From an uncultured Chloroflexia bacterium (lineage in GTDB: Bacteria; Chloroflexota; Anaerolineae; Anaerolineales; Anaerolineaceae): 32,000 bases of DNA. Below are positions 11,417-32,000 of the stretch, one piece after another. Position 1 is the stretch's first letter; every line of letters begins with the position of its first letter. Below the pieces are notes generated by a model, which saw only the letters and a program-made list of their open reading frames with translations, searched no databases and was not told where the DNA came from. Both the position numbers and the translations under genes were made by a program. The DNA lies in contig OY969938.1 of assembly GCA_963704755.1 (NCBI GenBank), positions 4,620,001-4,652,000 of the forward strand, in the 5' to 3' direction.

Positions 11417-11755
11417 TTACTCCCACTCACTGGGATCATAGTGGCGCAGACGTTTGGTTTCGCCACGTTTCTTTTTTGACCCAACCCGGGCGGCTTTCGA
11501 GGTCAGCGATGGGCGGGTCGCTTTGCGCGCTTTGGGCGGCACCAGCGCTTCCCGGATCAACGTGACCAACCGTTGGGTGGCGTCCAGACGGTTCTGCTCC
11601 TGGGTGCGGTAACGTTTGGCCTCGATAATCAGCACACCTTCCTCGGTCAAACGGCTGCCGGCCAGCTTGGCCAGGCGTGTTTTGACGTCCAGGGCCAGGG
11701 CGGACGAGGAGCGCACGTCAAAGCGCAACTGCACCGCCGTGGAGACTTTGTTCAT
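11417..11755 (-). pseudogene. arfB: 5'-truncated arfB (peptidyl-tRNA hydrolase ArfB/YaeJ) lacking the GGQ motif; GC-rich, host-like composition
   Basis: NKVSTAVQLRFDVRSSSALALDVKTRLAKLAGSRLTEEGVLIIEAKRYRTQEQNRLDA...PPKARKATRPS aligns with the intact copy at 14453-14878 from its NKV codons onward. Upstream of codon N (11752-11750) homology to arfB stops and the duplicated flank begins. Confidence 0.75.
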
Positions 11756-11800
11756 GCCCTGTAGGAATTCCGGTGCACTTCTCGCTACCATTCTGCTACC
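11751..11800. repeat. Direct repeat copy 1 (arfB 3'-flank); matches copy 2 at 42 of 50 positions
   Basis: TTCATGCCCTGTAGGAATTCCGGTGCACTTCTCGCTACCATTCTGCTACC versus 14367-14416. Weaker similarity continues rightwards into the arfB remnant. Confidence 0.7.
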
Positions 11801-13004: not shown

Positions 13005-13274
13005 ATGCTATTTGAAAAGCAAAAAGCATTTCAACTGGACCTGGAAAAGGCAATTGCAGCAATACTAATAAAACATTTTCCATATAACGCCATGGGACAG
13101 GATCATTGGCCGGATATCGATAGAGTAAAGTATGAAATTGAGACGTATGACCAAGATGAGCCTGAAATCCGGGAAGATTTCATAAAGGTTGAAAGCGACG
13201 AAACCAATCCATTTGAAGGTAAATATTCAGATTTCCGGCCGACAGGAGAATCAAATAATGAAAATCAGAAATAG
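13005..13274 (+). CDS. ORF continuing the HTH gene in the -1 frame (frame open from 12870, first ATG at 13005)
   Basis: The frame reads SQLKAEKFPYILKQQRIKYDGKFLYDRYLEYILIIHDISKRQFDEMLFEKQ... with no start codon or SD before 13005. It overlaps the next gene by 17 nt. Confidence 0.4.
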   Translation: MLFEKQKAFQLDLEKAIAAILIKHFPYNAMGQDHWPDIDRVKYEIETYDQDEPEIREDFIKVESDETNPFEGKYSDFRPTGESNNENQK

Positions 13275-14286
13275 AATAGCTGAAATAAAAATATTGCAAG
13301 CTCACATTTTACAAGACTATTTTAGGATGGCTTTGACAGCGAATTTTAATGATGATGACACATGGAAATCAATACTTCATGAAGAGGTTCAAAGCGCCGC
13401 GAATGCTCATGATATAAACTCTCAAAGCTATGTTGGTGCATGGGAGAAAATGCAGTTAATAGGGATGGATCACTATTCAGTTGACGATATGGATACTACT
13501 ATCATTACAGCAATTCTTAAAAATTCCAAAAACCGCTATTTCTCCGGTTGTAAATTCAATAAGCTAGAACAGTATCTGGATTCTATTCAGGAGGATAGGA
13601 ATAATGATGCTCACACAACCGGTAATGAGACCGAATCAGAACTCTTACAACGGGCATATGGCTCGTTACATGGCATAAGCAGATTTATCTCCGCTGTTGC
13701 AAAAGCAAAAGTTAGTAAGGTGTCTGACGATGAAAGAAAGTCTTACGCCCGAAAATATCTGGCCGCGATAGACTCTCTACGCTTGCAGTTTGACAATGAT
13801 TATAAAGAAGCATTCAAATCAAATGATATTGAACAATCCATCAACCGGGATATTGAAAGAATTAAAACCAGCAAAGACCCTTTTAGAACATATGTCGAAA
13901 TTGAAGGACAGTACATCAATAAGCGAGATACCGAAGGAAAAATCGATTTAATCCTGCACAGAAAATTTATACAAACAGCAGCGGACGCAGGAATTGTTTG
14001 GGCCTGCCCCTTGATTGGAGATGTATATTTTGAGGGTTTATTAACAGATGTGGATTATATTAAGGCAGCCGAATACTATGAAAAGGGGTTTAGCCAAATG
14101 GGGCTACCGCAGAAATTGAGACTTGCAAGTATTTATATAAATGATCTTTGCAATTCTTCTCACTCAAAAGAGGAAGGAATGACAATTATAAAATCCTGTG
14201 AAAGCCCACAAAGGGAGATTATCACATACACCTCAAAAGATGGCTATGAGTTTTACTCATTAAAGAGGATTAAGCATAATTCCTAA
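13258..14286 (+). CDS. Swt1-like HEPN domain protein with C-terminal Sel1/TPR-like repeats
   Basis: SD AGGAG lies 9 nt before ATG 13258. MDTTIITAILKNSKNRYFSGCKFNKLEQYLDSIQEDRNNDAH contains an Rx4H motif (R114-H119, nt 13597-13614). Sel1-like stretch: AADAGIVWACPLIGDVYFEGLLTDVDYIKAAEYYEKG. Confidence 0.65.
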   Translation: MKIRNRIAEIKILQAHILQDYFRMALTANFNDDDTWKSILHEEVQSAANAHDINSQSYVGAWEKMQLIGMDHYSVDDMDTTIITAILKNSKNRYFSGCKFNKLEQYLDSIQEDRNNDAHTTGNETESELLQRAYGSLHGISRFISAVAKAKVSKVSDDERKSYARKYLAAIDSLRLQFDNDYKEAFKSNDIEQSINRDIERIKTSKDPFRTYVEIEGQYINKRDTEGKIDLILHRKFIQTAADAGIVWACPLIGDVYFEGLLTDVDYIKAAEYYEKGFSQMGLPQKLRLASIYINDLCNSSHSKEEGMTIIKSCESPQREIITYTSKDGYEFYSLKRIKHNS

Positions 14287-14452: not shown

Positions 14453-14878
14453 CTACTCCAAATCCTTTGGATTAATTTGCCGTGTCCGCTTGATCTCACC
14501 ATGTTTTTTCTTATCATCTACCCTTGTTGCTTTGGCTTTCAAACTTGGGCGGGTTGCCCTTCTGGCTTTAGGTGGATTTAGTGCTTTCTGGATTGTGGTC
14601 GTTAATCGAAGAATTGCATCCGCTCGATTTTGATCTTGAGTTCGATATCTTTTAGCTTGGATGATTAAAATACCATCTTCTGTCATCCGGCTGCCGGCAA
14701 GCTTGATCAGGCGTTCTTTGATATCTGGTTCCAATGAGGGGGAATTTCGAACATCAAACCTGAGTTGGACAGAGGTTGCGACCTTATTTACGTTTTGGCC
14801 TCCAGGACCAGATGCGCGGATAAAATCGTATTGTATTTCACTTTCATTGATTTTTATGGAAGTTGTAATCTCAATCAT
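14453..14878 (-). CDS. arfB: Alternative ribosome-rescue factor ArfB (class I release-factor-like peptidyl-tRNA hydrolase), intact, AT-rich
   Basis: 141 aa. Contains RASGPGGQNVNKV (GGQ motif) and a basic C-terminal tail (KARRATRPSLKAKATRVDDKKKHGEIKRTRQ). Confidence 0.9.
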   Translation of the reverse strand: MIEITTSIKINESEIQYDFIRASGPGGQNVNKVATSVQLRFDVRNSPSLEPDIKERLIKLAGSRMTEDGILIIQAKRYRTQDQNRADAILRLTTTIQKALNPPKARRATRPSLKAKATRVDDKKKHGEIKRTRQINPKDLE

Positions 14879-15273
14879 GCTCTAAGTTTACGGTCATTAT
14901 TTAAAATCCAATAGGGTTATTTTATAAATTCTCTCTTTTTTATTGGTTTCAAATCTTTAATCAACAAATAATAAACTCTGTAAGATTTCTAGATTTTGAC
15001 TCCGCCTTTGCCCGTTCCCATTCAGTTTTTGAGTAGATTTGGGTAAAAATGAGCAATTTTTGGTGAGCGTATTTTATTACCTTCAATGGATTAATTAACA
15101 TTCCTATCAATTATCGCCACTTGCTTTTTATGAAATTTTGCACCCCCTTTAGTATTTTTTGTTCATTGAGTTTTTTGTTTATGTAGTCAAAATCGCTATG
15201 TTTTATTCGCGGTCATTTTGTAGACTTAAATATTATTTTCCAAAAAAATATCTTATGGTTGATAATCCATAAA

Positions 15274-16107
15274 TTAAGGAACAATTCCGGAAACCAAAAT
15301 TTTCGCAGCTTTAATTAGTAATCCTACTTTCTTTTTATCAAATTCTTCATTTATTTCGAGATGAGCAGAAGATGGAGTGATATGGAATTTTCCTAACTTT
15401 CCAATCGAATCCTGATACTCTTTCACTTGTTTCTTCTGGAATCCGTTGTAAGTATTTAATACATTCCACGTAAATATTATCATTGCATTTTCTTTGGCTG
15501 ACCGAGGTGGATACAAACCGATTAATCTTAGCTTCTTTTTACCGTAAGGCGCTTCCAGAACAATGCACATTGGAGTAGTTTTTATGGATAAATTTTGTTT
15601 TTCCCATCCCTCTAATAATTGAATAATTATTTCACGTGCATGTGAATTACACAATTGGAGGACACCCATAATAATCTTGGTTTCCTCGGGAGTCATCTTA
15701 ATGTTAGGCAATTTAACACTATCATCTTGGTTATTACTATCATTTTGGATTTGAATAATAATTTCGAGAACTTTATTTCTAGTATTTTCAACTTCTTTTT
15801 GTAAATCATCCATAGACTTGGTATATTCGTCATTTGAACCATTTGGGATTAGTACACAATTAATGTTAAAGAGCGATTCCTGTAAGATAATGAAATGTGA
15901 ACCAGTTACACTATCTACCTTGTTAACTAAAAATTCTACCAACTCAGGAGTAACTGGAGGAACTTCTTCCGGTGAAAGGAGGATCGGTAAAAAATAAATT
16001 AAGTAGGATGTTTCTTTAGTGGTTCTTATAATGGAAATAAAACCATCATTATTCTTTAATTTCAAGACTTTAAATATGAGGGATTGTTTGAATTGTTTTA
16101 AATCCAA
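15274..16107 (-). CDS. 277-aa protein of unknown function, overlapping and coupled to the S1 protease gene
   Basis: A long ORF in DNA of about 30% GC. It starts at TTG 16107 inside the protease 3' end, with no SD and no ATG. I recognise no motif. Confidence 0.6.
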   Translation of the reverse strand: MDLKQFKQSLIFKVLKLKNNDGFISIIRTTKETSYLIYFLPILLSPEEVPPVTPELVEFLVNKVDSVTGSHFIILQESLFNINCVLIPNGSNDEYTKSMDDLQKEVENTRNKVLEIIIQIQNDSNNQDDSVKLPNIKMTPEETKIIMGVLQLCNSHAREIIIQLLEGWEKQNLSIKTTPMCIVLEAPYGKKKLRLIGLYPPRSAKENAMIIFTWNVLNTYNGFQKKQVKEYQDSIGKLGKFHITPSSAHLEINEEFDKKKVGLLIKAAKILVSGIVP

Positions 16108-17174
16108 TTTATATTTTTTAAGATGCCGGCCATAATTTCTATGGCATTATTTGGTAAAGCCATAATTTCAACAGGTTCAATCGGGCCTTTTTCTGGATGG
16201 TCATAATCAGCTTGGCAAATTGGACATTTATTTCCTGCTTTATTAAATTGTAAATCCCCACACCGTCTACAATATAAACTAGAAACACAGGTATTCCGTC
16301 CTTTTTCTAAATATTCATGGATTTTTTCTTTGATTAAGTCTGTTGGAACAGCGAACTTTAATGCGTCCGAGTTACCTTTGCCCCATAAATTGATACCAAC
16401 TACTTCACCATATTCGTTGATTAAAGGCCCGCCTGAATTACCGTGGTCTATCGCCGCATCAGTCTGCAGACATTTTACACCGTTAAATAATGCATCTGGG
16501 TTACTAATAATCCCACGCGACAAAGTGTTTGGCATTCCAAGCGGCGCGCCAATGGCATAAACAGTGTCGGATTGCTGCATATCAATTGAATTTCCCACTG
16601 CTACAACCGGAAAAGATTCGGTTCCTTCTAACCAAATAAAAGCGTAATCCATTTGCCTATTGGAAGCTATAACCATACCTTTATAAGATTTTTCTTCTGG
16701 TTTTTGTGGATGCAGAATTACATCAACCTCACGAAGTGAGATGTTTTCTTGATTTTCTACTACATGACGAGCTGTAATCAAGAGCCCACTTTCAGAAACG
16801 ATGAAACCCGAGCCGGAGAAATTACCCGCAATAACTACCACAGTAGCCCCAATTGCTTTTTTAATAGCAGTCCTCGAATCAATGGGATTATCTTTTATTT
16901 GCAAAGGTTTTTTTTGGGGTTCTTTTTGTAGATCTAATTGTCCGAGTTGAATTGTGATCTTATCGTCTAAATTGACAGGAAAACTTACAGATAATTCAGT
17001 CACTAAACCAACAGCTGATAATTGCTTATTTACCTGGTCAACTACGGTTTGGGTTCTGCGAGCGAACCCAAAGCCTTTTAATAATGTTCGTAATTTGATA
17101 TTTATTTTTTGGTCCTTCTTATCCTTGATTTGGATTACAAGATTTTGAGCATATGGTTTCAGACTTTCTGACAT
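16098..17174 (-). CDS. Cytoplasmic trypsin-like (S1C/HtrA-type) serine protease with an unknown N-terminal domain and a C-terminal zinc ribbon
   Basis: SD GGAGGG lies 5 nt before the ATG. Catalytic triad contexts are LLITARHVV, QMDYAFIWL and DHGNSGGPLIN. C-terminal motif CRRC-x11-CPIC. No signal peptide, TM segment or PDZ domain. Confidence 0.85.
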   Translation of the reverse strand: MSESLKPYAQNLVIQIKDKKDQKINIKLRTLLKGFGFARRTQTVVDQVNKQLSAVGLVTELSVSFPVNLDDKITIQLGQLDLQKEPQKKPLQIKDNPIDSRTAIKKAIGATVVVIAGNFSGSGFIVSESGLLITARHVVENQENISLREVDVILHPQKPEEKSYKGMVIASNRQMDYAFIWLEGTESFPVVAVGNSIDMQQSDTVYAIGAPLGMPNTLSRGIISNPDALFNGVKCLQTDAAIDHGNSGGPLINEYGEVVGINLWGKGNSDALKFAVPTDLIKEKIHEYLEKGRNTCVSSLYCRRCGDLQFNKAGNKCPICQADYDHPEKGPIEPVEIMALPNNAIEIMAGILKNINWI

Positions 17175-17575
17175 GATATCCCTCCAAATTAAATTACTTC
17201 TTAAAATCTGAGTTAAAAACTAATAAAACGTTCGTTTAAATCCTAATTGCGAAGAATATTTGATTATGATTAATTATTGTATCATTATCAATGAATTTGC
17301 GTTTTGAGTAGATTTCCATAATTTCTGGCTAATATTATTCTGGATTGTATAGGTGTTTCAGAAAGATTGAAATTATTATTGCATTATTATCCTGGTTTTT
17401 TGGGCTCAAGTAATATATTTTTAGAAAAGCCTTGTAATTGTTTAAAAAGCCAAGAGAAGTAAGAATCCCTTACAAAAAAGTATTCCGAGATTCCATGTTA
17501 AAATTTTTTTGCTAACATTTTCACACGACATGACGCTTCACTAAAATCGAGCAAAACAATGACCATTCTATATTT

Positions 17576-19927: not shown

Positions 19928-21556
19928 GTGTTGATGACCTCGGATTTACTTCAAGACTTGGAAAAACAATTAACACGCATTCCTGAAGAAAGCCTAAAGA
20001 GTTTTTTTCCGGCTGCATTTTTTTTGGAGGAACGTCGAGAATATTTCGTAGAATTGCCCGGCATTACGCGATTGATGATTAACAACAATTATATTGATTC
20101 CAAACTTCCAGGAAGAGGCATTTTTCAAATATGTATTGCAGACAGGTTGGGTTTGACCTGTATCCAGCCGGTTAAAGATGGGCAGCAAGAAGGAACACCA
20201 CTTTGGGTTGAAGTGTATTCTACTAAATTTCCGGCTCCCTATGAACACCTGAAATTTTTTCAAGCCTTGGTCGACGATTTATACAGAAAGAGCGCCAATC
20301 TTCCTTTTACTTTTGAGAATCAAACACAACGAGGGGTTTCTGAAATACCACATACGCCAACGCTGCTATTCATTTATCACTTCTTACGATGTGCAGTTGT
20401 GTCTTTCGAGCAGGCGATTAACACCATTCTAGCTGAGCCACATCGGGTGTTATCCGATCATCCTGAACAAGTTTTGCTTTACCAGGCTTCTGAAGTAGAT
20501 AGTGATGTGATCCTGAGTATTCTTCAGGCGCCCGAATCCTGGGTAGAAACAAGTGAATTTCATCTTTCCAGGTTGCTTCAAACCGAAGGAAGATATTATG
20601 CTCCGGAACGCGTCTGGCAAAGGCAACCCGAAGAAACATATGATACCCCCGAAAACCGGTTTGTCCTCCACTTCCTGCGTCAAGTATTAACCGCAGCAGA
20701 TAAGTTACCAACGCTGGGTTGGTGGAAGAAATTAAGCTCAGATGGAACCAATAAAATTCGAGAATTATCTTCGGTTTTACGCGAGGCAGTTGCACACCCG
20801 ATGTTTGCCGAGGTTGGTGAACTTTACCACCTTCCTGCTAATTCGCAGGTGTTGATGCGTCGGGAAGGGTATCGTGAAATTTATAAATTATGGCAGCAAT
20901 TTAATTCTTCCTGGCAGCCATTGTTTGCCCGTTGGCAGCAAGCAATTGATATGCGAGAAATTTATTATTTATACGAATTGTGGGTGTTTTTCAAACTGGT
21001 CGATCTGGTAGGGTTAAATAATCCTTGTCAGAACCTGGAGATGACCATCTCGGATGAAAGGGGGGTCGAGTATAAATCCAAGGCTGTTTTTTGGAACAGT
21101 GAGGAATTGATTTACAACCAGACATTCCATCCCAAATGGAATGAGAATAAATCCTATTCTTTGGTCATGCGCCCTGATTATCTCTGGCGAAGTGTTAATC
21201 CAAAACGGCAAGTTGTACTGGACGCCAAGTTCAGTATGTCTATCACTGAAAAAGAGTTGGAAGATGAAAACAAGATCGAGGACGAGGCTTCCAGCACCAT
21301 TCGGGAAGGTTATCCAATACGCGATAACCTGTACAGAATGCACACTTACCGGGATGCGCTTCATGAAACACAGGCGGCAGTGATCTTGTATCCAGGAACA
21401 CAATCCATATTCATGTCTGTAAAAAATCATAAATTCATGGATGTAACTTTGGCAGAGGTGTTACACGGTACATGTGAACGCCATTCTACCCAATTTGAGA
21501 TTGAATCATTTTTATTGGATGGAATTGGAGCAATTCCCTTACGGCCTTACAACTGA
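19928..21556 (+). CDS. McrC-like PD-(D/E)xK nuclease subunit (DUF2357-type)
   Basis: Family-like stretches: YDTPENRFVLHFL, LYELWVFFKL, RPDYLWRSVNPKRQVVLDAKFS (D...D-x-K) and MHTYRDAL. The start is GTG 19928 or ATG 19934. Confidence 0.8.
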   Translation: MLMTSDLLQDLEKQLTRIPEESLKSFFPAAFFLEERREYFVELPGITRLMINNNYIDSKLPGRGIFQICIADRLGLTCIQPVKDGQQEGTPLWVEVYSTKFPAPYEHLKFFQALVDDLYRKSANLPFTFENQTQRGVSEIPHTPTLLFIYHFLRCAVVSFEQAINTILAEPHRVLSDHPEQVLLYQASEVDSDVILSILQAPESWVETSEFHLSRLLQTEGRYYAPERVWQRQPEETYDTPENRFVLHFLRQVLTAADKLPTLGWWKKLSSDGTNKIRELSSVLREAVAHPMFAEVGELYHLPANSQVLMRREGYREIYKLWQQFNSSWQPLFARWQQAIDMREIYYLYELWVFFKLVDLVGLNNPCQNLEMTISDERGVEYKSKAVFWNSEELIYNQTFHPKWNENKSYSLVMRPDYLWRSVNPKRQVVLDAKFSMSITEKELEDENKIEDEASSTIREGYPIRDNLYRMHTYRDALHETQAAVILYPGTQSIFMSVKNHKFMDVTLAEVLHGTCERHSTQFEIESFLLDGIGAIPLRPYN

Positions 21557-21571
21557 TTGAGGTGAAACACT

Positions 21572-23674
21572 ATGTCGTTAAACCAGAATAAATATTCACA
21601 ATTATTCGATGAATTGAAAGTTGCCCCCGAAGTAAAAAATGAGCTTTTACGTTTTTTTGTCGATCGTATTCAAAAAGCACATTCGATTAGCCCGAATGGG
21701 TGGGTAGTGTATGAAATTAAAGGAACCATTGTACTATCAATTTCATTTGTATATACCATAAGTATTGGCTTTGATTTGAGTGGGAAAAAAATTAACGGAA
21801 TTATGGCTATGGCGGCGCAAACTGAGCTGACAGATTCTGTAAAAAAGCAGCTAGAAGAACTAGGGTGCAAAATTGGAGAAGGATTTAAACACACTGGGGG
21901 CTCAAATTCGGTTTATATTCCATTTGAAAATACAGATAAATTTATAAAGGCGTTAAAAATTGCCCGCCCAATAAATGATCAATATATTTCTAATGTATTG
22001 AATCCTGGCAAGAAAACAAGTTGGCCAAAAAAGTACGATCCAGAACTTACCCGATTTCTGCGCGGTGAATTAGATATGGATATTCCAGACCCGGAATATT
22101 TTATTTCCCAAAAAGGGAAAGTGACTAGCAAAGTTGGAGGAAACCCTATGGAAATATTTAATGAAATCGATAATTATCTTCAATCCCAAGGTTATTATTT
22201 TACCCTCAACCAAATAACTTCTTTCTACACGGCTTTGCAAACCAAAGGTTTTGTCATCTTAAGCGGCATCAGCGGTACGGGGAAGACAAAACTGGCGCAA
22301 TTATTCGCGCAAATGCTGCCTGTCCCGACTCAAAGAAAAATTGAGAATCTTGAAAATTTGATTTCTATTACCCTGCAGCCGGATCATCTGTTAAGGCATC
22401 GTTTTATAATTCCCAAAAAGTACATTGGGTATTTTGAACCTATCGAACCCAACAAACGAGTGGATATTACTCTGATGTATCAAGGTAAGACTCAAAAGTG
22501 TTGGATGAAATCATACGAATATCCTGCTAGACCTCCTTACTTAATGTTTTGGTTGCAAGGCGATGCTATCGGGTGGGTCTCAGATAATTTCAAGGTCGGC
22601 GACACTATGATGTTACAGCCGGATTTTCAAGATGAAAAATTACTCGGGTTGACGATTTTATCAGAACAGACAGAAGTGGTTGCTGAAGAAGAAGGAGAAA
22701 ACTGTCTTTTCTTATCGGTTCGCACGGATTGGCGCGACAGCAAGAGTTTATTGGGATACTACAACCCACTCACGAAGCATTACGAGAGCACACCTTTTCT
22801 TGAGTTCGTAATAAAAGCAAGGAATAGCTTTGAATCAGGTGATAACCTAGCCTGGTTCATCATTTTAGATGAAATGAACCTGGCACGGGTGGAATATTAT
22901 TTCGCGGATTTATTGAGCGTTTTAGAATCAGGCCGGGATGATAAAGGAAATACTCGCGAGACCCTAAGGTTTATCTATGGGGATTTGGAAGAAGGCGAAG
23001 TACCCCCTCCTCCCGAAATAGCGTTACCTCCGAATCTGTATATTATTGGAACTGTCAATGTTGACGAAACTACCCAATCATTCAGCCCAAAAGTTCTCGA
23101 CCGTGCCTTTAGTCTGGAGTTCATGGATGTAGACTTTAATCGCTATACATCACCCGAACATGGGGACTGGCCTATATGGAAACGACAAGAAGCTGGGATG
23201 AAATTACTAACAGAATTTACACGTCAAAAAACTTTTGTGCAGATCAACAAAGGAGAAATTTTCGCTTTCGTTCAAGCCCATCCGGAATTTTCAGCAAAAT
23301 TACAAGACCTGAACCAGAAACTGCAACCTTTTAGCATGCATTTTGGATATCGAGTATTTGATGAAATCATGATGTTTCTCAAAAATTCTGAGGACAATAA
23401 AATTGAGATAGAGAGCGCTTTTGATCAGGCGGTATTGATGAAAGTATTACCCAAATTTCATGGATCGCGGGGAAAACTCGAAAAGCCCTTAGTGGCGATT
23501 CTTGTTTGGTGTTCAAAAGCCAAATCAGAAGAAACCGAACCCATAAAAACATTATTACAATTAGACCATAATACAGCAATCAACCCAGTTGAATGGGAAT
23601 GCCCGGCGACTGCTGGGCGTATTTTGCGTATGCTACAATCTTTGAACGACACTGGATTTGCCTCATTTGGATAG
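21572..23674 (+). CDS. McrB-like AAA+ (AAA_5) NTPase subunit with an unknown N-terminal domain and an insert between Walker A and Walker B
   Basis: Walker A is VILSGISGTGKTKLAQ (aa 228-243). Also SVRTDWRDSKSLLGYYNP. Walker B and family motif is FIILDEMNLARVEYYFADLLSVLE (aa 429-452). Also IIGTVNVDETTQSFSPKVLDRAF. Confidence 0.85.
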   Translation: MSLNQNKYSQLFDELKVAPEVKNELLRFFVDRIQKAHSISPNGWVVYEIKGTIVLSISFVYTISIGFDLSGKKINGIMAMAAQTELTDSVKKQLEELGCKIGEGFKHTGGSNSVYIPFENTDKFIKALKIARPINDQYISNVLNPGKKTSWPKKYDPELTRFLRGELDMDIPDPEYFISQKGKVTSKVGGNPMEIFNEIDNYLQSQGYYFTLNQITSFYTALQTKGFVILSGISGTGKTKLAQLFAQMLPVPTQRKIENLENLISITLQPDHLLRHRFIIPKKYIGYFEPIEPNKRVDITLMYQGKTQKCWMKSYEYPARPPYLMFWLQGDAIGWVSDNFKVGDTMMLQPDFQDEKLLGLTILSEQTEVVAEEEGENCLFLSVRTDWRDSKSLLGYYNPLTKHYESTPFLEFVIKARNSFESGDNLAWFIILDEMNLARVEYYFADLLSVLESGRDDKGNTRETLRFIYGDLEEGEVPPPPEIALPPNLYIIGTVNVDETTQSFSPKVLDRAFSLEFMDVDFNRYTSPEHGDWPIWKRQEAGMKLLTEFTRQKTFVQINKGEIFAFVQAHPEFSAKLQDLNQKLQPFSMHFGYRVFDEIMMFLKNSEDNKIEIESAFDQAVLMKVLPKFHGSRGKLEKPLVAILVWCSKAKSEETEPIKTLLQLDHNTAINPVEWECPATAGRILRMLQSLNDTGFASFG

Positions 23675-26900: not shown

Positions 26901-26990
26901 TTGTTTCAACCCTTACCACCACCTGGTGGCTGCCCAAGCTATTGTGTAGCGGCAGCCTGGTGTTGGCATTGCAAGGTGGTGAAGTATTGA
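23901..26990 (+). CDS. addB: AddB-type helicase-nuclease subunit B (inactive helicase-like N-terminus, C-terminal PD-(D/E)xK nuclease with Fe-S cluster cysteines)
   Basis: N-terminus LISPPATGKT. Nuclease motif RVIDYKSG. Cysteines at ASCPFSF and GGCPSYCVAAAWC match the C...CxxCx5C Fe-S pattern. Confidence 0.85.
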   Translation: MPIHLLISPPATGKTQTCFNLVISAVQNNPLSAIWYLVPDQMQADAVRTRFSTTGQTVPVRVATFYELNTEILERLGCSLPVAGNSMLHRFLQEIIRSLCDAGQIPHYAPISDLPGFLNEIRARVAELQLSLVTPQRLTELAQKQFDPGLIDLARIYTEYQAQLLDLGWTDPEGLGKKALEALKSEEKALTDIALMIVDGFDNFNPSQLQVLEVVASRAEQTWITLPGTPTMARPAHRRFSLAEYKLIKIQGLDVQTCSISPHLPPTLLQVEDNIFATSIQPFHSGVDLQRIEARSAVEEAREALRWLKSHVIRDGLTLSACAVTVPDLETYRSALQDAAYEFGLPLQFSQGVLLSTTPLGAAISDLLSLAFQDYPLRSLLDTLRSPYFDLAGLGLQSSDAKLLEIASRYGQVVQGLTQWEETLQDLSTQDSSPEDLGDLSDEGDAAPRLPTGALATRLLKGLRLLSDRLSPPVGEMSYKQWATWLQELLENLGFYNNLAAAGEIELISAFDLLLSTLAHSEALTGACPTGYEGFLKEWEGLMSATSVQDEPSNESGPFIRVMRLMEARGIRVEALAVLGLSEGVFPAIERADPFLSEEVRNQLGMEAYLGQEQAGLFYQVVTRADRYLLLTRPYLAKDGEIWEPSPYWNALQELLMEKPVRIHPDEARPFCEAASPNELLFWVADRWSQTKFELPTALSDRFGARWLHIMGTQIVLANRLQKEAKGEYDGDLSKIDQILAVRYGEKAGWSASRLEAYASCPFSFLASAALGLEVIEAPQIGYQANQLGSILHEVLEKVYPEVADPSDTASVLSHLPAVAQRVFEDAPKNFQFRPSPLWETQQAELLLILEATVQAIAEMDPDQCWQPLAFEAKFGMGGQPPLVLNTPGGKIRLHGLVDRIDINPQRKLRVIDYKSGSSHLSPQDLIEGRRLQLPIYALAASQALDLGETVEGFYWKLFQKGVSALKLSTFKSDVGTGPEAAFKMATNHIETIVANIRRGLFQPLPPPGGCPSYCVAAAWCWHCKVVKY

Positions 26991-27820
26991 TCGAAGGACC
27001 TCTTACCAATCTGTTTGATTTTTTAGGTTTGATCGGAAACCAGCGCGAGGCTGCTGCTGAAAGATCAAGCAATGTAGCTGTTACAGCTGGTGCCGGAAGC
27101 GGGAAGACACGCACATTGGTGGCACGTTACCTTCGTTACCTCAGCGAAGGTAAACTGCCACGCCAAGTGGTGGCGATCACTTTTACAGAGAAAGCTGCCC
27201 GAGAAATGCGCAGCCGCGCCCGAATTTGGTTGCGCCAGCTGGTGCTGAAAGCCGAAACGAATGCAGAACGCAGCCTTTGGGCACAATTGGACACTCAAAT
27301 GGATAGTGCCCGCATCGGCACCATTCACAGCCTATGCGCGGAGATCCTCCGCAGTCACCCAGCTGAAGCGCACCTGGATCCCCAATTTATCGTGATCGAA
27401 GAAAATAAAGCTACCGCGCTACGCGCCCAGGCAGTGGGAAATGCCTTGATTTGGGCGATTCAAGAGCCTGAAATGGCAATACTCTTCAAGCACTTCAATC
27501 TAAACCGGTTGGAAGGACTAAGCGGTTTGTTCCTGGAGAAACGACTGGATATGAACCCGGGTTCATTTGCCCCTGATCATTTGAATCAAGCAATTCTTAT
27601 AGCCCTTATGAGGTTTTTCCAGGATAAAACGGTTGCCAGTGTGCGCATTGAACTGCGTCAGGCTCAGTTAGATCGAAGTCTAGTTGCTGACTGCGGTGAA
27701 CCGTTTGCAAACCAGGTGATCGCTCTTCTGGAATTTCTGGACACTTCTGAAAACGCATTAACTAAAAAAAATCCACCGAATCCGCCCAGGCACTTTTTAC
27801 TGCCCGCCGTAGTCAAATGA
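26942..27820 (+). CDS. addA: AddA/UvrD-family helicase-nuclease subunit A, N-terminal fragment (motifs I, Ia, Ib)
   Basis: VTAGAGSGKT, AITFTEKAAREM and IGTIHSLCAEIL. The likely start is TTG 26984, after AGGTGG, overlapping the addB stop. The fragment ends just after an A8 tract. Confidence 0.8.
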   Translation: MCSGSLVLALQGGEVLIEGPLTNLFDFLGLIGNQREAAAERSSNVAVTAGAGSGKTRTLVARYLRYLSEGKLPRQVVAITFTEKAAREMRSRARIWLRQLVLKAETNAERSLWAQLDTQMDSARIGTIHSLCAEILRSHPAEAHLDPQFIVIEENKATALRAQAVGNALIWAIQEPEMAILFKHFNLNRLEGLSGLFLEKRLDMNPGSFAPDHLNQAILIALMRFFQDKTVASVRIELRQAQLDRSLVADCGEPFANQVIALLEFLDTSENALTKKNPPNPPRHFLLPAVVK

Positions 27821-30300
27821 GACTCAATTTTGGTCCAAGAGTTTGCAATACTAAGGAAGCTGTAAAAGCATTGCGCGAACGTTACGATGAACTTTTACAA
27901 CCCTGGTTGGGGGGCGCTAATAATGCAGATCCGTTGCTTGATCCCAACGTGGATCAACTGCTGGTTGAATTGTCCCCCCTCCTTGAAAAACTCTATACAC
28001 AGGCTTTGACTTTTTACCGGGCATCCCTGGATGAGCAGAGCAGTCTAGATTTTGACGATCTGGAAGCGGGAACTGTAGCCCTTTTACGCAATCCGGCTAT
28101 TCGCGCACACTGGCAGAAAGAAATTGCAGCAGTTCTGGTAGATGAATTTCAGGATACAAACAGCCGGCAACGTGAAATCATTATCGGGTTGTGTGGTGAT
28201 CAACCTGGGCGTTTGTTTGTTGTTGGAGATGCCCGCCAGAGCATCTACCGCTTCCGAGGTGCAGACGTAACAGTTTTTACCGACCTGCAGACCGAGATTC
28301 GCCGCCAGGGTGGGCGAAGCATTGATCTTGACCGTACATTTCGTGCTCATCCAGCTTTGCTGGAAAGCACCGGAGCATTACTGGCACCTGTCATGGGTAC
28401 CACCCCTGACCCGCTGCGTCCCTTTTACATTCCATATACCGGGTTGTATTCAGAGAGGAGTGAATCTCGAGAGGGAATGCAGTCGCCGTTTGTTGAATGT
28501 ATACTTGGGGCAGGCGAAGATAGCGAGGCGGCACGATCAGCTTCTGCACATGCCCTGGCCGGACGGCTGGTGCAGCTGAAAGCACAGAAAGAAATCCGGA
28601 AATGGGATGAAGTCGCTTTGCTCTTTCGCGCCTCTACCCCCTTTCCAATCTACGAACAGGCTTTGGAGGATTTAGGGATTCCTTTTGTTACGGTCGCCGG
28701 CAGCGGATTCTTCGAGCGGCCTGAAGTCCGTGACCTGCTTAATTTCTTGCGCGCCTTAGCAGACCCCTGGGACGACCAGGCACTAGCCGGGATGTTGCGC
28801 TCTCCAGCATTGGGTATTTCAGATGTAGGGCTATATCAGCTTCGACAAAGAAATCCTTCTCAGTCCAATTCGAGCAGTACAAATCGCCCACTACGTGAAG
28901 CACTCAACGCAGATTTGAGTTCTCTATCGGTCTCTGATCAAGACCATATCCGGCGTGCACTATTCATTTTAGAAGATCTCGAACCCCTGGTAGACCGGCT
29001 ACCAGTGGCCGAGCTACTTACGCGCGTTGTAGATCGAACAGATTATCGTGCAACCCTGGCAACCTGTGCTCACCTCCAAGGCAGTGCGCGATTATGGCGT
29101 AACGTGGACAAACTAATTAGCGATGCACAGAAAAGTGGTGCGGTGCGAGTACGAGCCTTCCTGGAATATATCGCAACCATGCGGGATGTGGGTGCGCGAG
29201 AGAGTGAAGCCGCATCAGAAGCGGAAGGCGTCGTACGTTTGATGACCATTCACAAGGCTAAGGGTTTGGAATTCCCAATTGTGGTCTTAGCGGATGCAAA
29301 CCGCCGCCCTAATAGGGGCAAAGGAATGGCTTACCAACTAGGCGAGAGTTGGACTTTTGAGGTCGATAAAGAGGAAGGCAATCCATTGGCTTTCCGGTTA
29401 GCACAGTGGCAGGACAGCCTCCAGGCTGATGCAGAGGACCAACGACTGTTGTACGTTGCCCTGACGCGTGCCCAGGAAAAGTTGATCATTAATGGGCATT
29501 TAACCATGAAGGACAATCACCTTAAAGCAGATGGTTGGTTAAGTGACTTACTGGATGCCGGGGGAATCCTCCCAGATTCATTGTCGACGGATGCTGGTGC
29601 CTGGAAACATGCTTCGCTGATCGATAAGGCTGAATGGGGAATCTGGCTGGAGCCAAATGCCATGGATGCTCCAACCGCTGAGCTTTTACCTGTACCTGAT
29701 TGGCCAGACTCTTTTGCCGAACCGCTCTTCTCTACACTTTCCATGCCATTGATTACTCCAGTCGCAATTCCAGAGCACCGGCATTTATCGTTTGACCCAC
29801 GTACACCACCTGCTCGAATAGTGGGTGAGATGGTACATAAAGCCTTGCAGCGTTGGCGTTTCTCCAACGATCCTTTACTTGAAACCCTACTGCGCACCCA
29901 GGCCCACATGGAAGGGCTGCTGAATGAAGATTTGGTAAACCAAGCGATCCACGAAGCTCAATCAATGCTGAATAGATTTCAAAGACATTCGCTGTTTGTG
30001 GAGATGAACACAGCAGTAGAGAGACACCATGAAATACCATTTATAGACCCAACTTCTCAAAAAGGTACAAGATGGGGATTCATGGATTGCTTATATCGCA
30101 CAGCAGCCGGTTGGGTCTTAGTCGATTTTAAGACAGATGAATTGCGCAGCCAGGCAGCACTAGAAGAAGCTGTGAATATGTATTCTTCACAACTACTGCG
30201 TTACAGTCAGGCTGCCACCGCGTTGTTGGGTAAAAAGCCCCTTTCGCTTATGTGTTTTTTGAACGCCAATCGGGCGGTTGAGGTGCGTGAGGTTGTGTGA
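27817..30300 (+). CDS. addA: AddA/UvrD-family helicase-nuclease subunit A, C-terminal fragment (motifs II-VI plus PD-(D/E)xK nuclease)
   Basis: VLVDEFQDTN, VVGDARQSIYRFRGA, VRLMTIHKAKGLEFPIV and LLYVALTRAQEKL. Nuclease motifs are FMDCLY...VLVDFKTD. This frame is open from 27766. Confidence 0.85.
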   Translation: MRLNFGPRVCNTKEAVKALRERYDELLQPWLGGANNADPLLDPNVDQLLVELSPLLEKLYTQALTFYRASLDEQSSLDFDDLEAGTVALLRNPAIRAHWQKEIAAVLVDEFQDTNSRQREIIIGLCGDQPGRLFVVGDARQSIYRFRGADVTVFTDLQTEIRRQGGRSIDLDRTFRAHPALLESTGALLAPVMGTTPDPLRPFYIPYTGLYSERSESREGMQSPFVECILGAGEDSEAARSASAHALAGRLVQLKAQKEIRKWDEVALLFRASTPFPIYEQALEDLGIPFVTVAGSGFFERPEVRDLLNFLRALADPWDDQALAGMLRSPALGISDVGLYQLRQRNPSQSNSSSTNRPLREALNADLSSLSVSDQDHIRRALFILEDLEPLVDRLPVAELLTRVVDRTDYRATLATCAHLQGSARLWRNVDKLISDAQKSGAVRVRAFLEYIATMRDVGARESEAASEAEGVVRLMTIHKAKGLEFPIVVLADANRRPNRGKGMAYQLGESWTFEVDKEEGNPLAFRLAQWQDSLQADAEDQRLLYVALTRAQEKLIINGHLTMKDNHLKADGWLSDLLDAGGILPDSLSTDAGAWKHASLIDKAEWGIWLEPNAMDAPTAELLPVPDWPDSFAEPLFSTLSMPLITPVAIPEHRHLSFDPRTPPARIVGEMVHKALQRWRFSNDPLLETLLRTQAHMEGLLNEDLVNQAIHEAQSMLNRFQRHSLFVEMNTAVERHHEIPFIDPTSQKGTRWGFMDCLYRTAAGWVLVDFKTDELRSQAALEEAVNMYSSQLLRYSQAATALLGKKPLSLMCFLNANRAVEVREVV

Positions 30301-30928: not shown

Positions 30929-32000
30929 TCACGAGATAAGGTTAGTGTACCTTTTAATTGAAGACTTTAATTCTTTTGCTCCTTGCATTGGCAATGTGGG
31001 TAACATGCTGAAATACTGACGTATTGCGGCATTAATCGCTGCCAGACATGTCTTTGTTTTTACCCAGTTTTGTGGGCTAAAAACTCGATTTGGTGGCTGA
31101 GGCTCGTTGGCGGCGGCTTCTAATGCTGTGTTTAAGCAACTACCTGCAATCTTTATTATTTGCTCAACTTGATTCCGAGTTTGAGCTTGATCCCAAGCTG
31201 CCTTAGGGCTTGCAACCATCTCGGGTAGATTACTCGCGATTGAATAGCACATGGATACTGCATACAACTGGTGGTAGGGAGCATAAGATTTCATAGCTAA
31301 GAGGGTTTCATTCAATCCGAGAGTATTCTCCGATGTCCATCCTTTCATAATTTCCTGCATCCAATAATTTAAAGCTTGGGCATCATTTGGTGAGTAATCC
31401 CTTTTAAATAATTGCTCGAAATACTTATCGAAAATCTTGGTCTCACTATAAGCAATATTTGGTCTTTGTGAATGCCAAGAGATTAAATATTTTCCAAGAT
31501 CGGATAGGTCCAAGATCATGGTTTTATCTTTCGATGGAGGAGCTGCCTCTCCACGTTTTGAAATAAAATAACCGTTTGTGAAGGTTTGTTCAAACGAGTG
31601 TTTTAAGTTTAGTACCCGTTTATCATTGCTCCTTAGATCACGAGGTTTCACCACACTTTGTGAATTTGTCGAGATACTGATTCGGTCAGCTCGTTCAATT
31701 TGCGGAATTTCATAAAAACGGAACATGATATAGGCATCTTGAATTTGTTTGGTACGCTCACTGCAAGATAAGATTGTATTTAACGATTGACAGCCATTGA
31801 CAACACTTAAACCGTTGAGCTGCAAAACCCCGCTCTCAGAGAGGTGCATATGGTTGCATATTGCAGTAATGCCATTATGGAAAAAGTAGAAGTCTCGATA
31901 TTTATCACTGTAAATCGTAGATCGAATCGCTTTATTGACTGGATTATTCAAACCGAGCGATTGTCGCACATTCTTCCGAAATAATGTACCATCCTTAATT
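30929..32000 (-). CDS. AIPR-family abortive-infection protein, C-terminal two-thirds (5' end outside the window)
   Basis: FFHNGITAICNHM...LSVVNGCQSLNTI matches the AIPR NGIT / VNG-Q-(S/T) core. The frame stays open to base 32000 (IKDGTLFRKNVRQS...). Confidence 0.8.
   Translation of the reverse strand, partial: IKDGTLFRKNVRQSLGLNNPVNKAIRSTIYSDKYRDFYFFHNGITAICNHMHLSESGVLQLNGLSVVNGCQSLNTILSCSERTKQIQDAYIMFRFYEIPQIERADRISISTNSQSVVKPRDLRSNDKRVLNLKHSFEQTFTNGYFISKRGEAAPPSKDKTMILDLSDLGKYLISWHSQRPNIAYSETKIFDKYFEQLFKRDYSPNDAQALNYWMQEIMKGWTSENTLGLNETLLAMKSYAPYHQLYAVSMCYSIASNLPEMVASPKAAWDQAQTRNQVEQIIKIAGSCLNTALEAAANEPQPPNRVFSPQNWVKTKTCLAAINAAIRQYFSMLPTLPMQGAKELKSSIKRYTNLIS

What the first reader, a model, noticed from the sequence alone, without database searches (positions are those of the whole stretch)
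15274..17174. Cytoplasmic S1 protease/zinc-ribbon protein coupled to an unknown 277-aa protein: best candidate for an undescribed system
This two-gene minus-strand operon lies in the most AT-rich part of the island, between the recombinase and the island-borne arfB. It is flanked by intergenic regions of about 400 bp. Gene 1 (358 aa) has an N-terminal domain of about 100 aa that I cannot place, followed by a complete HtrA/trypsin_2-type catalytic triad. It has no signal peptide, no TM segment and no PDZ domain. Instead it has a C-terminal CxxC-x11-CxxC zinc ribbon, so it should be an intracellular protease. Gene 2 (277 aa) has no recognisable motif. It starts at a TTG buried in the last codons of gene 1, with no SD, which implies obligatory translational coupling or fusion. 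Intracellular trypsin-like proteases act as effectors or activators in several bacterial conflict systems. I do not recognise this particular protease/zinc-ribbon plus partner architecture as a named system.
Basis: partly seen in the sequence, partly recalled or inferred. Interest (0 to 1): 0.75.

Follow-up and report, generated by a model that had tools for sequence, protein, structure and literature searches.

The report
Frameshift-split protease fused to chaperone-like domains
The "two-gene operon" is one 634-residue gene for a cytoplasmic serine protease fused to peptide-binding chaperone-like domains, cut in two here by a single missing base; it belongs to a conserved, unnamed protease-plus-chaperone module that often sits among anti-phage genes.

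Summary
Both ORFs exist as described: catalytic triad, CxxC-x11-CxxC, and no signal peptide. They are one gene, not two. A 92%-identical Anaerolineaceae orthologue (635 aa, MHC1740136.1) is uninterrupted and has A7 where the window has A6 (16114-16119). Homology to single-polypeptide relatives crosses the junction.

A second single-base deletion in an A-rich run splits addA 11 kb away, so an assembly error is the likelier cause; a real recent mutation is not excluded.

The repaired protein has these domains:
- a winged-helix-like N-domain, weakly similar to the N-terminus of the validated anti-phage protein DS-11
- an S1C protease
- a zinc ribbon
- a YbjN/T3SS-type "TY-chaperone" domain
- a domain "B" with no Pfam, NCBIfam, PADLOC or PDB sequence match

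Relatives of the protease that lack the fusion have a YbjN-like gene directly adjacent on the same strand in all 17 evaluable fetched loci. The protease-chaperone link is therefore real and conserved.

Six of 11 annotated neighbourhoods contain known defence genes (BREX BrxL, GmrSD, McrBC, type I R-M, HEPN). No named system matches.

Verdict: a plausible new variant of protease-based conflict genes, inferred only in silico, and this copy is disrupted as assembled.

The parts
15274..17174 (-). One gene, 634 codons once repaired, for a multidomain cytoplasmic S1C protease. In this assembly it reads as two ORFs (16098-17174 and 15274-16107).
   Evidence: tblastn: the single polypeptide P0123 matches the gene-1 frame (E 8e-65) and the gene-2 frame (E 4e-28) colinearly. 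The intact 635-aa orthologue P0176 sits in the same 90% cluster. Inserting one A gives a 634-aa ORF.
16114..16119 (-). Frameshift site. The window has A6 (CATCTT-AAAAAA-TAT) where the orthologue has A7. A -1 shift is needed to continue into the gene-2 frame.
   Evidence: DNA alignment of window against L011. This is the only indel in the body of the gene. The junction peptide ...AIEIMAGILKKYKLDLKQFKQS... matches P0176 and P0128 across the shift.
16941..17174 (-). N-terminal domain (aa 1-78, motif RTLLKGFGxxRRT) with winged-helix-like topology a1-b1-a2-a3-b2-b3.
   Evidence: AF2 pLDDT 88. All top Foldseek hits are wHTH DNA-binding domains such as CtsR, MarR, RTP, RepE and CodY, but E is 0.3-2. 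17 of 29 family N-domains hit the first 47-72 positions of NCBIfam DS11_antiphage, best E 3e-4. No Pfam or PDB sequence hit.
16299..16862 (-). S1C (HtrA-like, Trypsin_2) protease domain. Catalytic residues: H137 (16764-16766), D176 (16647-16649), S247 (16434-16436).
   Evidence: Pfam Trypsin_2 E 3e-28. NCBIfam degP_htrA_DO scores 132 bits, far below its 416-bit cutoff. The triad is invariant.
16200..16277 (-). Zinc ribbon, C302xxC305-x11-C317xxC320.
   Evidence: The cysteines are >=90% conserved in the family. Weak Pfam rubredoxin-like and Zn_ribbon_3 hits.
15733..16169 (-). Domain A, a YbjN/T3SS-class-I-chaperone-type (TY-chaperone) domain. Its first helix is encoded upstream of the frameshift, in the gene-1 frame.
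   Evidence: AF2 pLDDT 91 with b-b-b-a-b-b-a topology. Foldseek hits: 2plg, ExsC, STM2138, SycT, SicP, SpcU at probability 0.9-0.99. hhalign of A against YbjN-like partners: probability 99%, E 3e-18.
15277..15720 (-). Domain B (about 150 aa, motif LPNIKMTP...W...W...SSAH). It is a conserved domain with no Pfam, NCBIfam, PADLOC or PDB sequence match. In most relatives it is followed by a second copy (B'), which is absent here and in the orthologue.
   Evidence: 54 homologues by exhaustive HMMER. 75 B/B' instances. No database hit. Conserved positions are mostly hydrophobic. No B' remnant lies downstream.
17180..17185 (-). Shine-Dalgarno GGAGGG, 5 nt upstream of the ATG of the gene.
   Evidence: Read directly from the sequence.
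17263..17291 (-). Promoter-like site TTGATA-17-CATAAT, at the upstream edge of the conserved module.
   Evidence: Consensus scan, 10 of 12 matches. The total count in the region does not exceed shuffles, so this is only a candidate.
15227..17263 (-). Extent of DNA shared with the orthologous locus L011 (91.6% identity). The flanks on both sides are unrelated, so the gene is a self-contained module of about 2.04 kb.
   Evidence: blastn. Identity profile.

Best explanation
Window 15274-17174(-) encodes a single multidomain cytoplasmic protein of about 634 aa. Its domains, in order, are a winged-helix-like N-domain, an S1C serine protease, a zinc ribbon, a YbjN/T3SS-type peptide-binding chaperone domain (A) and a novel domain B.

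In this assembly the gene is split by the loss of one A from an A7 run. That is more likely an assembly or homopolymer error (about 0.6) than a real recent mutation (about 0.35).

Shown:
- It is one gene, and the frameshift lies at the A-run.
- The catalytic triad is intact.
- The domain folds are as listed above.
- Across the family, the protease is linked to a TY-chaperone domain, either fused or encoded by the neighbouring gene.
- Defence genes are frequent neighbours.

Inferred mechanism:
- The chaperone-type domain(s) bind an extended peptide of a target or trigger protein, either a phage protein or a host protein altered by infection.
- Binding either delivers that protein to the tethered protease or releases the protease from an auto-inhibited state.
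- Proteolysis then neutralises the invader or shuts the cell down.
- The wHTH-like N-domain and the zinc ribbon would provide docking, to nucleic acid or to a partner, or oligomerisation.

Confidence by layer: single gene with frameshift about 0.95; conserved protease plus TY-chaperone module about 0.9; anti-phage or conflict role about 0.45.
For: One gene:
- Colinear tblastn hits of the single polypeptides P0123 and P0128 in both frames.
- The gene-2 frame is open upstream of the TTG, and homology continues there.
- The intact 635-aa protein P0176 is in the same 90% cluster.
- A6 against A7 in the DNA alignment. This is the only internal indel.
- dN/dS is 0.145 upstream and 0.19 downstream of the shift.

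Assembly-error pattern:
- addA is split into 292 and 827 aa at an A8 run. Bellilinea relatives at >=90% identity are intact at 1112-1119 aa and read ...TKKESTES... there.

Domains.

Conserved module:
- An adjacent same-strand YbjN-like gene is present in L001, L002-6, L012/13, L014, L015/16, L017 and L018.
- The same holds for 10 of 13 metagenome loci. The other three contigs are too short or fragmentary to judge.
- Fused forms exist: P0003, P0007, P0008, P0023, P0035, P0046, P0123, P0128.

Defence context:
- Window: DUF2357+PDDEXK_7 with an AAA ATPase, AIPR, integrase.
- L011: HEPN_Swt1 and a type I R-M system.
- P0128 contig: BrxL, GmrSD, NERD-UvrD, two ADP-ribosylglycohydrolases.
- L012: McrBC plus Dcm.
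- L017: PLD-SNF2 helicase, Eco57I-like methyltransferase, GmrSD.
- L018: BrxL and an integrase.
- The gene alone is shared at 91.6% identity between two otherwise unrelated islands.
Against: - There is no experimental evidence for any function.
- Four of 11 annotated neighbourhoods show no defence genes (L001, L002, L015, and the P0052 contig).
- The neighbourhood sample is small and was not compared with a background rate.
- The wHTH assignment rests on topology and non-significant Foldseek E-values.
- The DS-11 similarity is weak, with best E 3e-4.
- TY-chaperone+B+B' proteins also occur with no protease nearby (L007-L010). The chaperone/B part therefore has a life of its own.
- No model of the chaperone-protease contact could be computed.
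- Whether the frameshift is real cannot be decided without reads.
Confidence: 0.6

Rival explanations
1. A genuine two-gene operon. A 358-aa protease and a separate 277-aa (or 263-aa) partner are translationally coupled through the overlapping TTG.
For: The ORFs overlap by 10 nt. Natural split forms of the family exist, with the protease and a separate YbjN-like gene often overlapping by 4 nt. The database holds both products as called proteins of the source genome (P0001 358 aa, P0177 263 aa).
Against: The gene-2 frame is open and homologous to relatives for 13 codons upstream of the TTG. The first helix of domain A is encoded in the gene-1 frame. The orthologue at 92% identity is a single ORF that differs by one A. 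There is no SD. Natural split forms divide between domains, not inside one.
Confidence: 0.04
2. Programmed -1 ribosomal frameshifting or transcriptional slippage at the A-run. It would yield a short protease (358 aa, like the natural short forms) and a long protease-chaperone fusion from one gene.
For: The gene-1 frame reads A_AAA_AAU, which formally fits the X_XXY_YYZ heptamer pattern. The zero-frame stop follows 5 codons later. The family has both short and long forms.
Against: The orthologue is in frame with A7, so the shift is not conserved. The 96 nt around and after the site fold no better than shuffles (-7 kcal/mol, z +1.28). There is no internal SD-like stimulator. addA in the same window has an analogous deletion. 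That favours random or technical indels.
Confidence: 0.04
3. The frameshift is a real, recent inactivating mutation. This island copy would then be a pseudogene, or a truncated protease lacking its regulatory domains.
For: The sequence as given has A6. The gene lies in a horizontally acquired low-GC island where decay is common. A second small indel changes the last residues.
Against: Both halves show purifying selection (dN/dS 0.15-0.19). There are no further lesions. The conserved addA gene has the same type of single-base loss in an A-rich run, while at least six close relatives are intact. That points to systematic homopolymer under-calling in a 4.87-Mb single-contig assembly. That it is a long-read assembly is my inference.
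Confidence: 0.33
4. The protein is a cytoplasmic proteostasis or regulatory protease, an HtrA-like quality-control enzyme with a built-in chaperone. On this view it has no role in phage or plasmid conflict.
For: The best profile matches are HtrA/DegP/DegS-type S1C proteases. YbjN-family proteins are generic peptide-binding chaperones (PMC9503650). Several loci have ordinary metabolic neighbours.
Against: - The distribution is patchy: only about 55 full-length homologues turned up among 5.8 billion proteins, with no 1:1 orthology pattern.
- The gene has moved as a gene-sized unit between unrelated islands.
- Defence genes are neighbours in 6 of 11 loci.
- The C-terminal modules vary (A, TY-Chap3, B, B', TPR), which is typical of conflict genes.
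- The N-domain resembles that of the validated defence protein DS-11.
Confidence: 0.3

Closest known systems
HtrA/DegP/DegS (MEROPS S1C, 'Do' family) proteases
   Same: The catalytic domain is the closest match (NCBIfam degP_htrA_DO E 3e-38; Pfam Trypsin_2). It has a His-Asp-Ser triad and the GNSGGP motif.
   Different: There is no signal peptide or TM segment and no PDZ domain. The score is far below the family cutoffs (132 against 416 bits). It also carries an N-terminal wHTH-like domain, a zinc ribbon and chaperone-type C-terminal domains.
Trypsin-like protease effectors of known defence systems (UG/Abi RT-Protease class XI, Avs1b, protease-type LmuA of Lamassu)
   Same: The S1 protease domain is similar to theirs (PADLOC RT-Protease_XI E 1e-18, LmuA 3e-7, Avs1b 4e-5). 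It is cytoplasmic and located in a defence island.
   Different: Only the protease domain matches. No reverse transcriptase, STAND NTPase or SMC-like LmuB is in the protein or next to it.
TY-chaperone domains (YbjN, T3SS class I chaperones, TY-Chap1-3) predicted in ARG-centred conflict systems (Aravind lab, PMC9503650)
   Same: Domain A and the adjacent partner genes belong to this superfamily (hhalign 99%; Foldseek to ExsC, SycT, SicP and 2plg; Pfam TY-Chap1/YbjN/TY-Chap3 on relatives). One relative, P0128, sits next to two ADP-ribosylglycohydrolase genes.
   Different: The section of that paper that was read (3.8) describes chaperones coupled to ADP-ribosylglycohydrolases and phosphatases, not to a protease. 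The window has no ARG gene among the neighbours scanned.
DS-11 (one-protein CBS+HEPN anti-phage system, DefensePredictor, PMC13092281)
   Same: The first 47-72 profile positions of DS-11 resemble the HTH-plus-wing part of the N-domain in 17 of 29 family members. DS-11 is experimentally validated as a defence protein.
   Different: The effector and sensor parts differ entirely: CBS+HEPN against S1C protease, zinc ribbon and chaperone domains. The similarity is weak (19 bits against a 260-bit cutoff).

Membership tests
HtrA/DegP 'Do' family (S1C with PDZ) | S1C catalytic domain with a His-Asp-Ser triad | tested here: met
   Trypsin_2 E 3e-28. H137, D176 and S247 are invariant.
HtrA/DegP 'Do' family (S1C with PDZ) | One or two C-terminal PDZ domains | tested here: not met
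   No PDZ hit in Pfam at E<=0.1 on either ORF or on the intact orthologue. A zinc ribbon and chaperone-type domains are present instead.
HtrA/DegP 'Do' family (S1C with PDZ) | Export signal or membrane anchor; curated family score cutoff reached | tested here: not met
   Hydrophilic N-terminus and no TM segment. 131.9 bits against a cutoff of 416.2.
UG/Abi RT-Protease class XI (PADLOC RT-Protease_XI) | Reverse-transcriptase domain N-terminal to the protease | tested here: not met
   The match covers only profile positions 321-508, the protease part. Pfam finds no RT domain.
AVAST type 1 (Avs1b) | STAND NTPase and sensor repeats fused to the protease | tested here: not met
   The match is limited to about 100 aa of the protease (E 4e-5). 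The protein has no NTPase domain.
Lamassu (protease-type LmuA) | Adjacent SMC-like LmuB (and LmuC) | tested here: not met
   Among the ORFs of at least 88 aa that were scanned on both sides, none has an SMC_N or AAA_23 hit. LmuA similarity covers the protease only.
TY-chaperone superfamily (YbjN / T3SS class I chaperones) | a-bbb-a-bb-a fold with a five-stranded sheet | tested here: met
   AF2 model pLDDT 91. Foldseek probability 0.9-0.99 to 2plg, ExsC, STM2138 and SpcU, although E is only 0.03-0.3.
TY-chaperone superfamily (YbjN / T3SS class I chaperones) | Sequence-profile homology to recognised members | tested here: met
   hhalign of domain A against YbjN-like partners: probability 99%, E 3e-18. 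Those partners hit Pfam YbjN or TY-Chap1. The window's own domain has no direct Pfam hit.
TY-chaperone superfamily (YbjN / T3SS class I chaperones) | Binds an extended peptide of a client protein | not testable with these tools
   Requires binding assays or complex modelling.
ARG-centred TY-Chap conflict systems (PMC9503650) | Adjacent ADP-ribosylglycohydrolase, usually with a phosphatase and a Nudix or WYL regulator | tested here: not met
   None among the window neighbours scanned with Pfam. Present only next to relative P0128.
DS-11 anti-phage protein (NF053863) | CBS pair plus HEPN nuclease; curated cutoff of 260 bits | tested here: not met
   Only the N-terminal 47-72 positions match, at 19 bits.
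Programmed -1 frameshift sites | Slippery X_XXY_YYZ heptamer in the zero frame | tested here: met
   A_AAA_AAU in the gene-1 frame.
Programmed -1 frameshift sites | Downstream stimulatory structure or upstream SD-like element; conservation of the shift in orthologues | tested here: not met
   Fold z-score +1.28. The orthologue is in frame with A7.
Anti-phage defence system (generic) | Protection against phage when expressed | not testable with these tools
   Only genomic context is available. Defence genes are present in 6 of 11 neighbourhoods.

The most novel reading that the evidence does not exclude
The family is an unrecognised anti-phage or anti-MGE module, built either from one protein or from two. 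A YbjN/T3SS-type chaperone domain, with or without B, B' or TPR, acts as a peptide sensor for a phage protein. It gates a tethered or co-encoded cytoplasmic S1C protease, which carries a DS-11-like winged-helix N-domain. Domain B would be a new sensor fold. This would be the first case of a T3SS-chaperone-type domain used as an immune receptor for a protease effector.
Probability: 0.3. Interest if true: 0.7.

Novelty: new variant of a known kind. Interest (0 to 1): 0.5.

Why it matters
- **Candidate new mechanism.** If the module is defensive, it adds a new logic to bacterial immunity: a secretion-chaperone-type peptide binder coupled to a serine protease.
- **Two domains open to experiment.** The N-domain is shared with the validated but mechanistically opaque DS-11. 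Domain B has no Pfam, NCBIfam, PADLOC or PDB sequence match and occurs in about 55 proteins.
- **Under-studied host group.** The module comes from Chloroflexota (Anaerolineae), where almost no defence systems have been tested.
- **A caution for genome scans.** An apparent "coupled two-gene operon" with an SD-less overlapping start can be a homopolymer frameshift. Here a second frameshift in addA flags the quality of the assembly.

Tried and rejected
- **Word-indexed homologue search.** Gene 2 alone gave nothing, and a 36-sequence profile gave only 2 hits. Exhaustive HMMER was needed and found 54 homologues.
- **Exact look-up of the 358-aa product.** It gave no contig. The source genome was instead inferred from cluster membership to be a Bellilinea-like Anaerolineaceae.
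- **E. coli genomes megablast.** No match.
- **The search for related loci.** Narrower alignments worked.
- **Is B a diverged TY-chaperone?** The secondary-structure order is similar, but hhalign against A and YbjN-like domains gives probability below 1%. Left open.
- **Is B an enzyme?** Rejected, because its conserved positions are mainly hydrophobic.
- **Serpin similarity.** The weak match of B to serpin strand s3A (E 0.4) was judged chance.
- **PADLOC REase_II** (E 0.002) and **Pfam DUF5724** (E 0.07) on gene 2 were judged noise.
- **Second copy B'.** A remnant downstream of the stop was searched for and not found. The orthologue also ends after B, so this is not a truncation.
- **Phage origin.** No viral contig carries the N-domain. 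BFVD fold search gave nothing significant. PHROGs matched the protease domain only.
- **att repeats around the island.** Only short imperfect repeats were found.
- **Further frameshifts in the window.** The overlapping ORF pairs at 9.3-10.4 kb and 10.7-11.3 kb are intact single genes, EamA and DinB_2.
- **HEPN similarity.** The window's 365-aa neighbour against the HEPN_Swt1 neighbour in L011 is not significant (E 0.67), although the Rx4H motifs align.
Full report
**1. Observation**

The second starts at a TTG that overlaps the last codons of the first.
- The region is the most AT-rich part of a low-GC island, with GC 0.32-0.37 against about 0.54 in the flanks. It is bounded by non-coding gaps of 401 and 395 bp.
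- Gene 1 has a strong Trypsin_2 hit (E 3e-28) and no PDZ domain.
- The triad H137/D176/S247 is invariant across 23 homologues. A CxxC-x11-CxxC ribbon is at least 90% conserved.
- The N-terminus is hydrophilic, and no TM segment lies outside the protease core.
- Gene 1 has a GGAGGG Shine-Dalgarno sequence. The TTG of gene 2 has none.
- The descriptive part of the finding therefore holds.

**2. It is one gene, not two**

- A word-indexed search with gene 2 found nothing. An exhaustive HMMER search found 54 relatives.
- Several relatives are single polypeptides that contain both halves.
  - P0123 (706 aa) is protease, zinc ribbon, A, B and B'.
  - P0128 (967 aa) is N-domain, protease, zinc ribbon, A, TY-Chap3, B and B'.
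- By tblastn, P0123 matches the gene-1 frame (E 8e-65) and then the gene-2 frame (E 4e-28) colinearly. P0128 matches the gene-2 frame starting at 16122, upstream of the TTG.
- The two frames are simultaneously open between about 16146 and 16098. That stretch contains CATCTT-AAAAAA-TAT.
- The 90%-identity cluster of the 358-aa product contains a 635-aa protein, P0176. It is annotated "S1C family serine protease [Anaerolineaceae bacterium]", MHC1740136.1. Its junction reads ...AIEIMAGILKKYKLDIKQFKQS..., exactly what the window encodes if the run is A7.
- The DNA of that orthologue (L011) aligns with the window at 91.6% identity. It has A7 where the window has A6 at 16114-16119.
- That is the only indel in the body of the gene.
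- dN/dS between the two copies is 0.145 upstream and 0.19 downstream of the run. Both halves have therefore evolved as coding sequence in these frames.

**3. Real mutation, artefact or programmed shift?**

- The gene-1 frame formally contains an A_AAA_AAU heptamer, and the zero-frame stop follows soon after.
- Against a programmed shift, the orthologue is in frame. The RNA around and after the site folds no better than shuffled sequence (z +1.28).
- In the same window addA is split into 292 and 827 aa inside its UvrD-helicase domain.
  - The frames meet at an A8 run at 27764.
  - At least six relatives at >=90% identity, mostly Bellilinea sp. MAGs, are intact at 1112-1119 aa. They read ...ENALTKKESTESAQ... 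there.
  - The window has therefore lost the G of AAAAAAGAA.
- Two single-base losses in A-rich runs lie within 32 kb of a 4.87-Mb single-contig genome, one of them in a conserved recombination gene. This favours homopolymer under-calling (my estimate about 0.6) over two real mutations (about 0.35). Programmed frameshifting gets about 0.04.
- Other suspicious overlapping ORF pairs in the window turned out to be intact genes.
- Only the reads can settle this.

**4. Anatomy of the repaired protein (634 aa)**

- *N-domain (aa 1-78).*
  - The AF2 model has pLDDT 88 and topology a1-b1-a2-a3-b2-b3, the winged-helix order.
  - The best Foldseek matches are all wHTH DNA-binding domains (CtsR with TMq 0.53, MarR, RTP, RepE, CodY, FoxO). 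Their E-values of 0.3-2 are not significant on their own.
  - There are no Pfam or PDB sequence hits.
  - 17 of 29 family N-domains hit the first 47-72 positions of NCBIfam NF053863 (DS11_antiphage), best E 3e-4.
  - DS-11 is a validated one-protein CBS+HEPN defence system (PMC13092281).
- *S1C protease (about aa 105-292).* It is closest to HtrA/DegP/DegS but far below the family cutoffs.
- *Zinc ribbon (aa 300-325).*
- *Domain A.*
  - The gene-2 model has pLDDT 91.3.
  - Its first half matches YbjN-like 2plg and the T3SS chaperones ExsC, STM2138, SycT, SicP and SpcU at probability 0.9-0.99.
  - Profile-profile comparison of A with the YbjN-like partner proteins gives 99% probability, E 3e-18.
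  - The first helix of this domain is encoded upstream of the frameshift. This is further evidence that the split is not natural.
- *Domain B (about 150 aa).*
  - It has a high-confidence fold, (aa)-bbbb-(aa)-bb-a.
  - Most relatives have a second copy, B'. B' is absent here and in the orthologue, and no remnant lies downstream.
  - It has no match in Pfam, NCBIfam, PADLOC, PHROGs or PDB sequences.
  - It shows no profile similarity to A or YbjN.
  - Its conserved positions are mostly hydrophobic, plus two Trp, one Cys and one Glu. That suggests a binding module rather than an enzyme.

**5. The family and its partner**

- About 55 proteins share the N-domain, protease and zinc ribbon at 40-46% identity over about 90% of gene 1.
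- "Short" forms (324-358 aa) stop after the ribbon. "Long" forms carry A and/or B.
- Every short-form locus with enough flanking DNA has an adjacent same-strand gene encoding a YbjN-like TY-chaperone domain:
  - L001, upstream, 192 aa
  - L002-6, downstream, YbjN-like plus TPR, 623 aa, overlapping by 4 nt
  - L012/13, downstream, 171 aa
  - L014, downstream, zinc ribbon plus YbjN-like, 249 aa
  - L015/16, downstream, 171 aa
  - L017, downstream, 201 aa
  - L018, upstream, 176 aa, in addition to a fused A domain
  

- A metagenome scan seeded only with the N-domain returned 13 loci. Ten of them have the adjacent YbjN-like ORF. The other three contigs are too short or fragmentary to judge.
- The protease-chaperone link is therefore conserved both as a gene neighbourhood and as a fusion.
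- Conversely, TY-chaperone+B+B' proteins occur in Anaerolineae MAGs with no protease nearby (L007-L010).

**6. Context**

- Between the window and L011, only the gene itself (15227-17263) is shared. The flanks are unrelated. The gene therefore moves as a unit of about 2 kb.
- Neighbours in each locus:

| Locus | Neighbouring genes |
|---|---|
| Window | Tyrosine integrase, complete island-borne arfB, DUF2357+PDDEXK_7 with an AAA ATPase (McrBC-like), AIPR |
| L011 | HEPN_Swt1, type I R-M, SprT-like |
| P0128 contig | BrxL, GmrSD, NERD-UvrD, two ADP-ribosylglycohydrolases |
| L012 | McrBC plus Dcm, NYN |
| L017 | PLD-SNF2 helicase, Eco57I-like methyltransferase, GmrSD |
| L018 | BrxL, integrase |
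| L014 | SNF2 helicases, SMC/AAA_15 ATPase (suggestive only) |
| L001, L002, L015, P0052 contig | No recognised defence genes |

- That is six clear cases out of 11. It is suggestive, but it was not tested against a background rate.
- No copy was found on viral contigs.

**7. Mechanism (inferred)**

- TY-chaperones bind extended peptides of client proteins. This is established for T3SS class I chaperones and was proposed for the TY-Chap families (PMC9503650).
- The most economical model has the chaperone-type domain(s) recognise a peptide of a trigger or substrate protein. Recognition would either present that protein to the tethered protease or relieve auto-inhibition.
- The wHTH-like N-domain and the zinc ribbon would supply docking or oligomerisation.
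- The variable sensor-like modules (A, TY-Chap3, B, B', TPR), the horizontal mobility and the neighbourhoods fit a conflict role. I put that at about 0.45.
- A proteostasis or regulatory role remains a serious rival, at about 0.3.

**8. Comparison with known systems**

- It is not an HtrA/DegP family member: no PDZ, no export signal, and a score below cutoff.
- It is not RT-Protease class XI, Avs1 or protease-type Lamassu. Only the protease domain matches, and the defining partners are absent.
- It is not one of the ARG-centred TY-Chap systems, because the window has no ARG gene.
- It is not DS-11, because only the N-terminal module is similar.
- Searches of the paper library for YbjN or TY-chaperone together with protease and defence terms found nothing. 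That library is incomplete.
- I therefore class it as a new variant of a known kind: a protease-effector conflict gene with a novel domain combination and two uncharacterised domains.

**9. Verdict**

- The "operon" is a frameshift and probably technical.
- The underlying gene family is a coherent, unnamed protease plus TY-chaperone module with a suggestive defence context.
- Interest is 0.5. It is a good candidate for experiment. However, the evidence is purely genomic, it is one of many predicted candidates, and the copy in this window is disrupted as assembled.

Noticed in passing
window 26942-27820 and 27817-30300 (+); A8 run at 27764-27771: addA (the AddAB helicase-nuclease subunit A) is split into 292-aa and 827-aa ORFs inside its UvrD-helicase domain. 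Relatives at >=90% identity (Bellilinea sp. MAGs) are intact at 1112-1119 aa and read ...TKKESTES... there. The window has therefore lost the G of AAAAAAGAA. This is a second single-base deletion in an A-rich run.
   Followed up: yes
window 11417-11791 (-) and 14453-14878 (-): There are two arfB-like (RF-1 domain) genes. The high-GC chromosomal copy at the left edge of the island lacks its first ~27 codons, including the GGQ motif. The low-GC island copy is complete and 65% identical to it. The missing 5' part was not found elsewhere in the window. This suggests the island inserted into arfB and brought a replacement copy.
   Followed up: partly
window 15227-17263 vs L011 9913-11946: Only the protease gene, with about 90 bp upstream and about 45 bp downstream, is shared (91.6% identity) between two Anaerolineaceae genomes. 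Both flanks are unrelated and low in GC. This indicates gene-sized horizontal exchange between islands.
   Followed up: yes
window 13189-14286 (+): A 365-aa ORF has no family hit other than a weak Sel1 repeat. It carries an R-x4-H motif (RNNDAH) that aligns with the motif of the HEPN_Swt1 protein next to the orthologous protease in L011. Overall similarity is not significant (E 0.67).
   Followed up: partly
window 19928-23674 (+) and 30929-31969 (-): Other defence-type genes are present. A DUF2357+PDDEXK_7 protein is followed by a 700-aa AAA/nSTAND-like ATPase (a McrBC-like pair). An AIPR abortive-infection protein lies near the window end.
   Followed up: partly
L007-L010 (Anaerolineae/Chloroflexi MAGs), e.g. 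L009 7527-8933: Stand-alone proteins of about 470 aa, built of a TY-chaperone domain plus B plus B', occur with no protease within the available flanks. Domain B therefore defines a separate family with no Pfam, NCBIfam, PADLOC or PDB sequence match (54 proteins, 75 domain copies).
   Followed up: partly
L028 1377-1974 and L029 1502-1985 (metagenome contigs): In these two contigs the homologous protease gene also seems to be broken across overlapping ORFs in different frames. In L028 the N-domain and the protease hits lie in different ORFs. In L029 the N-domain hit is split over two ORFs. The frameshifts could be real or technical.
   Followed up: no
domain B, window ~15500-15590 (-): The B-domain profile gives a weak, non-significant match (E 0.4) to the strand s3A region of serpins B3 and B4 (VLEIPYKGKDLSMIVLLP...W). 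This is curious for a domain fused to a protease, but it is probably chance.
   Followed up: no
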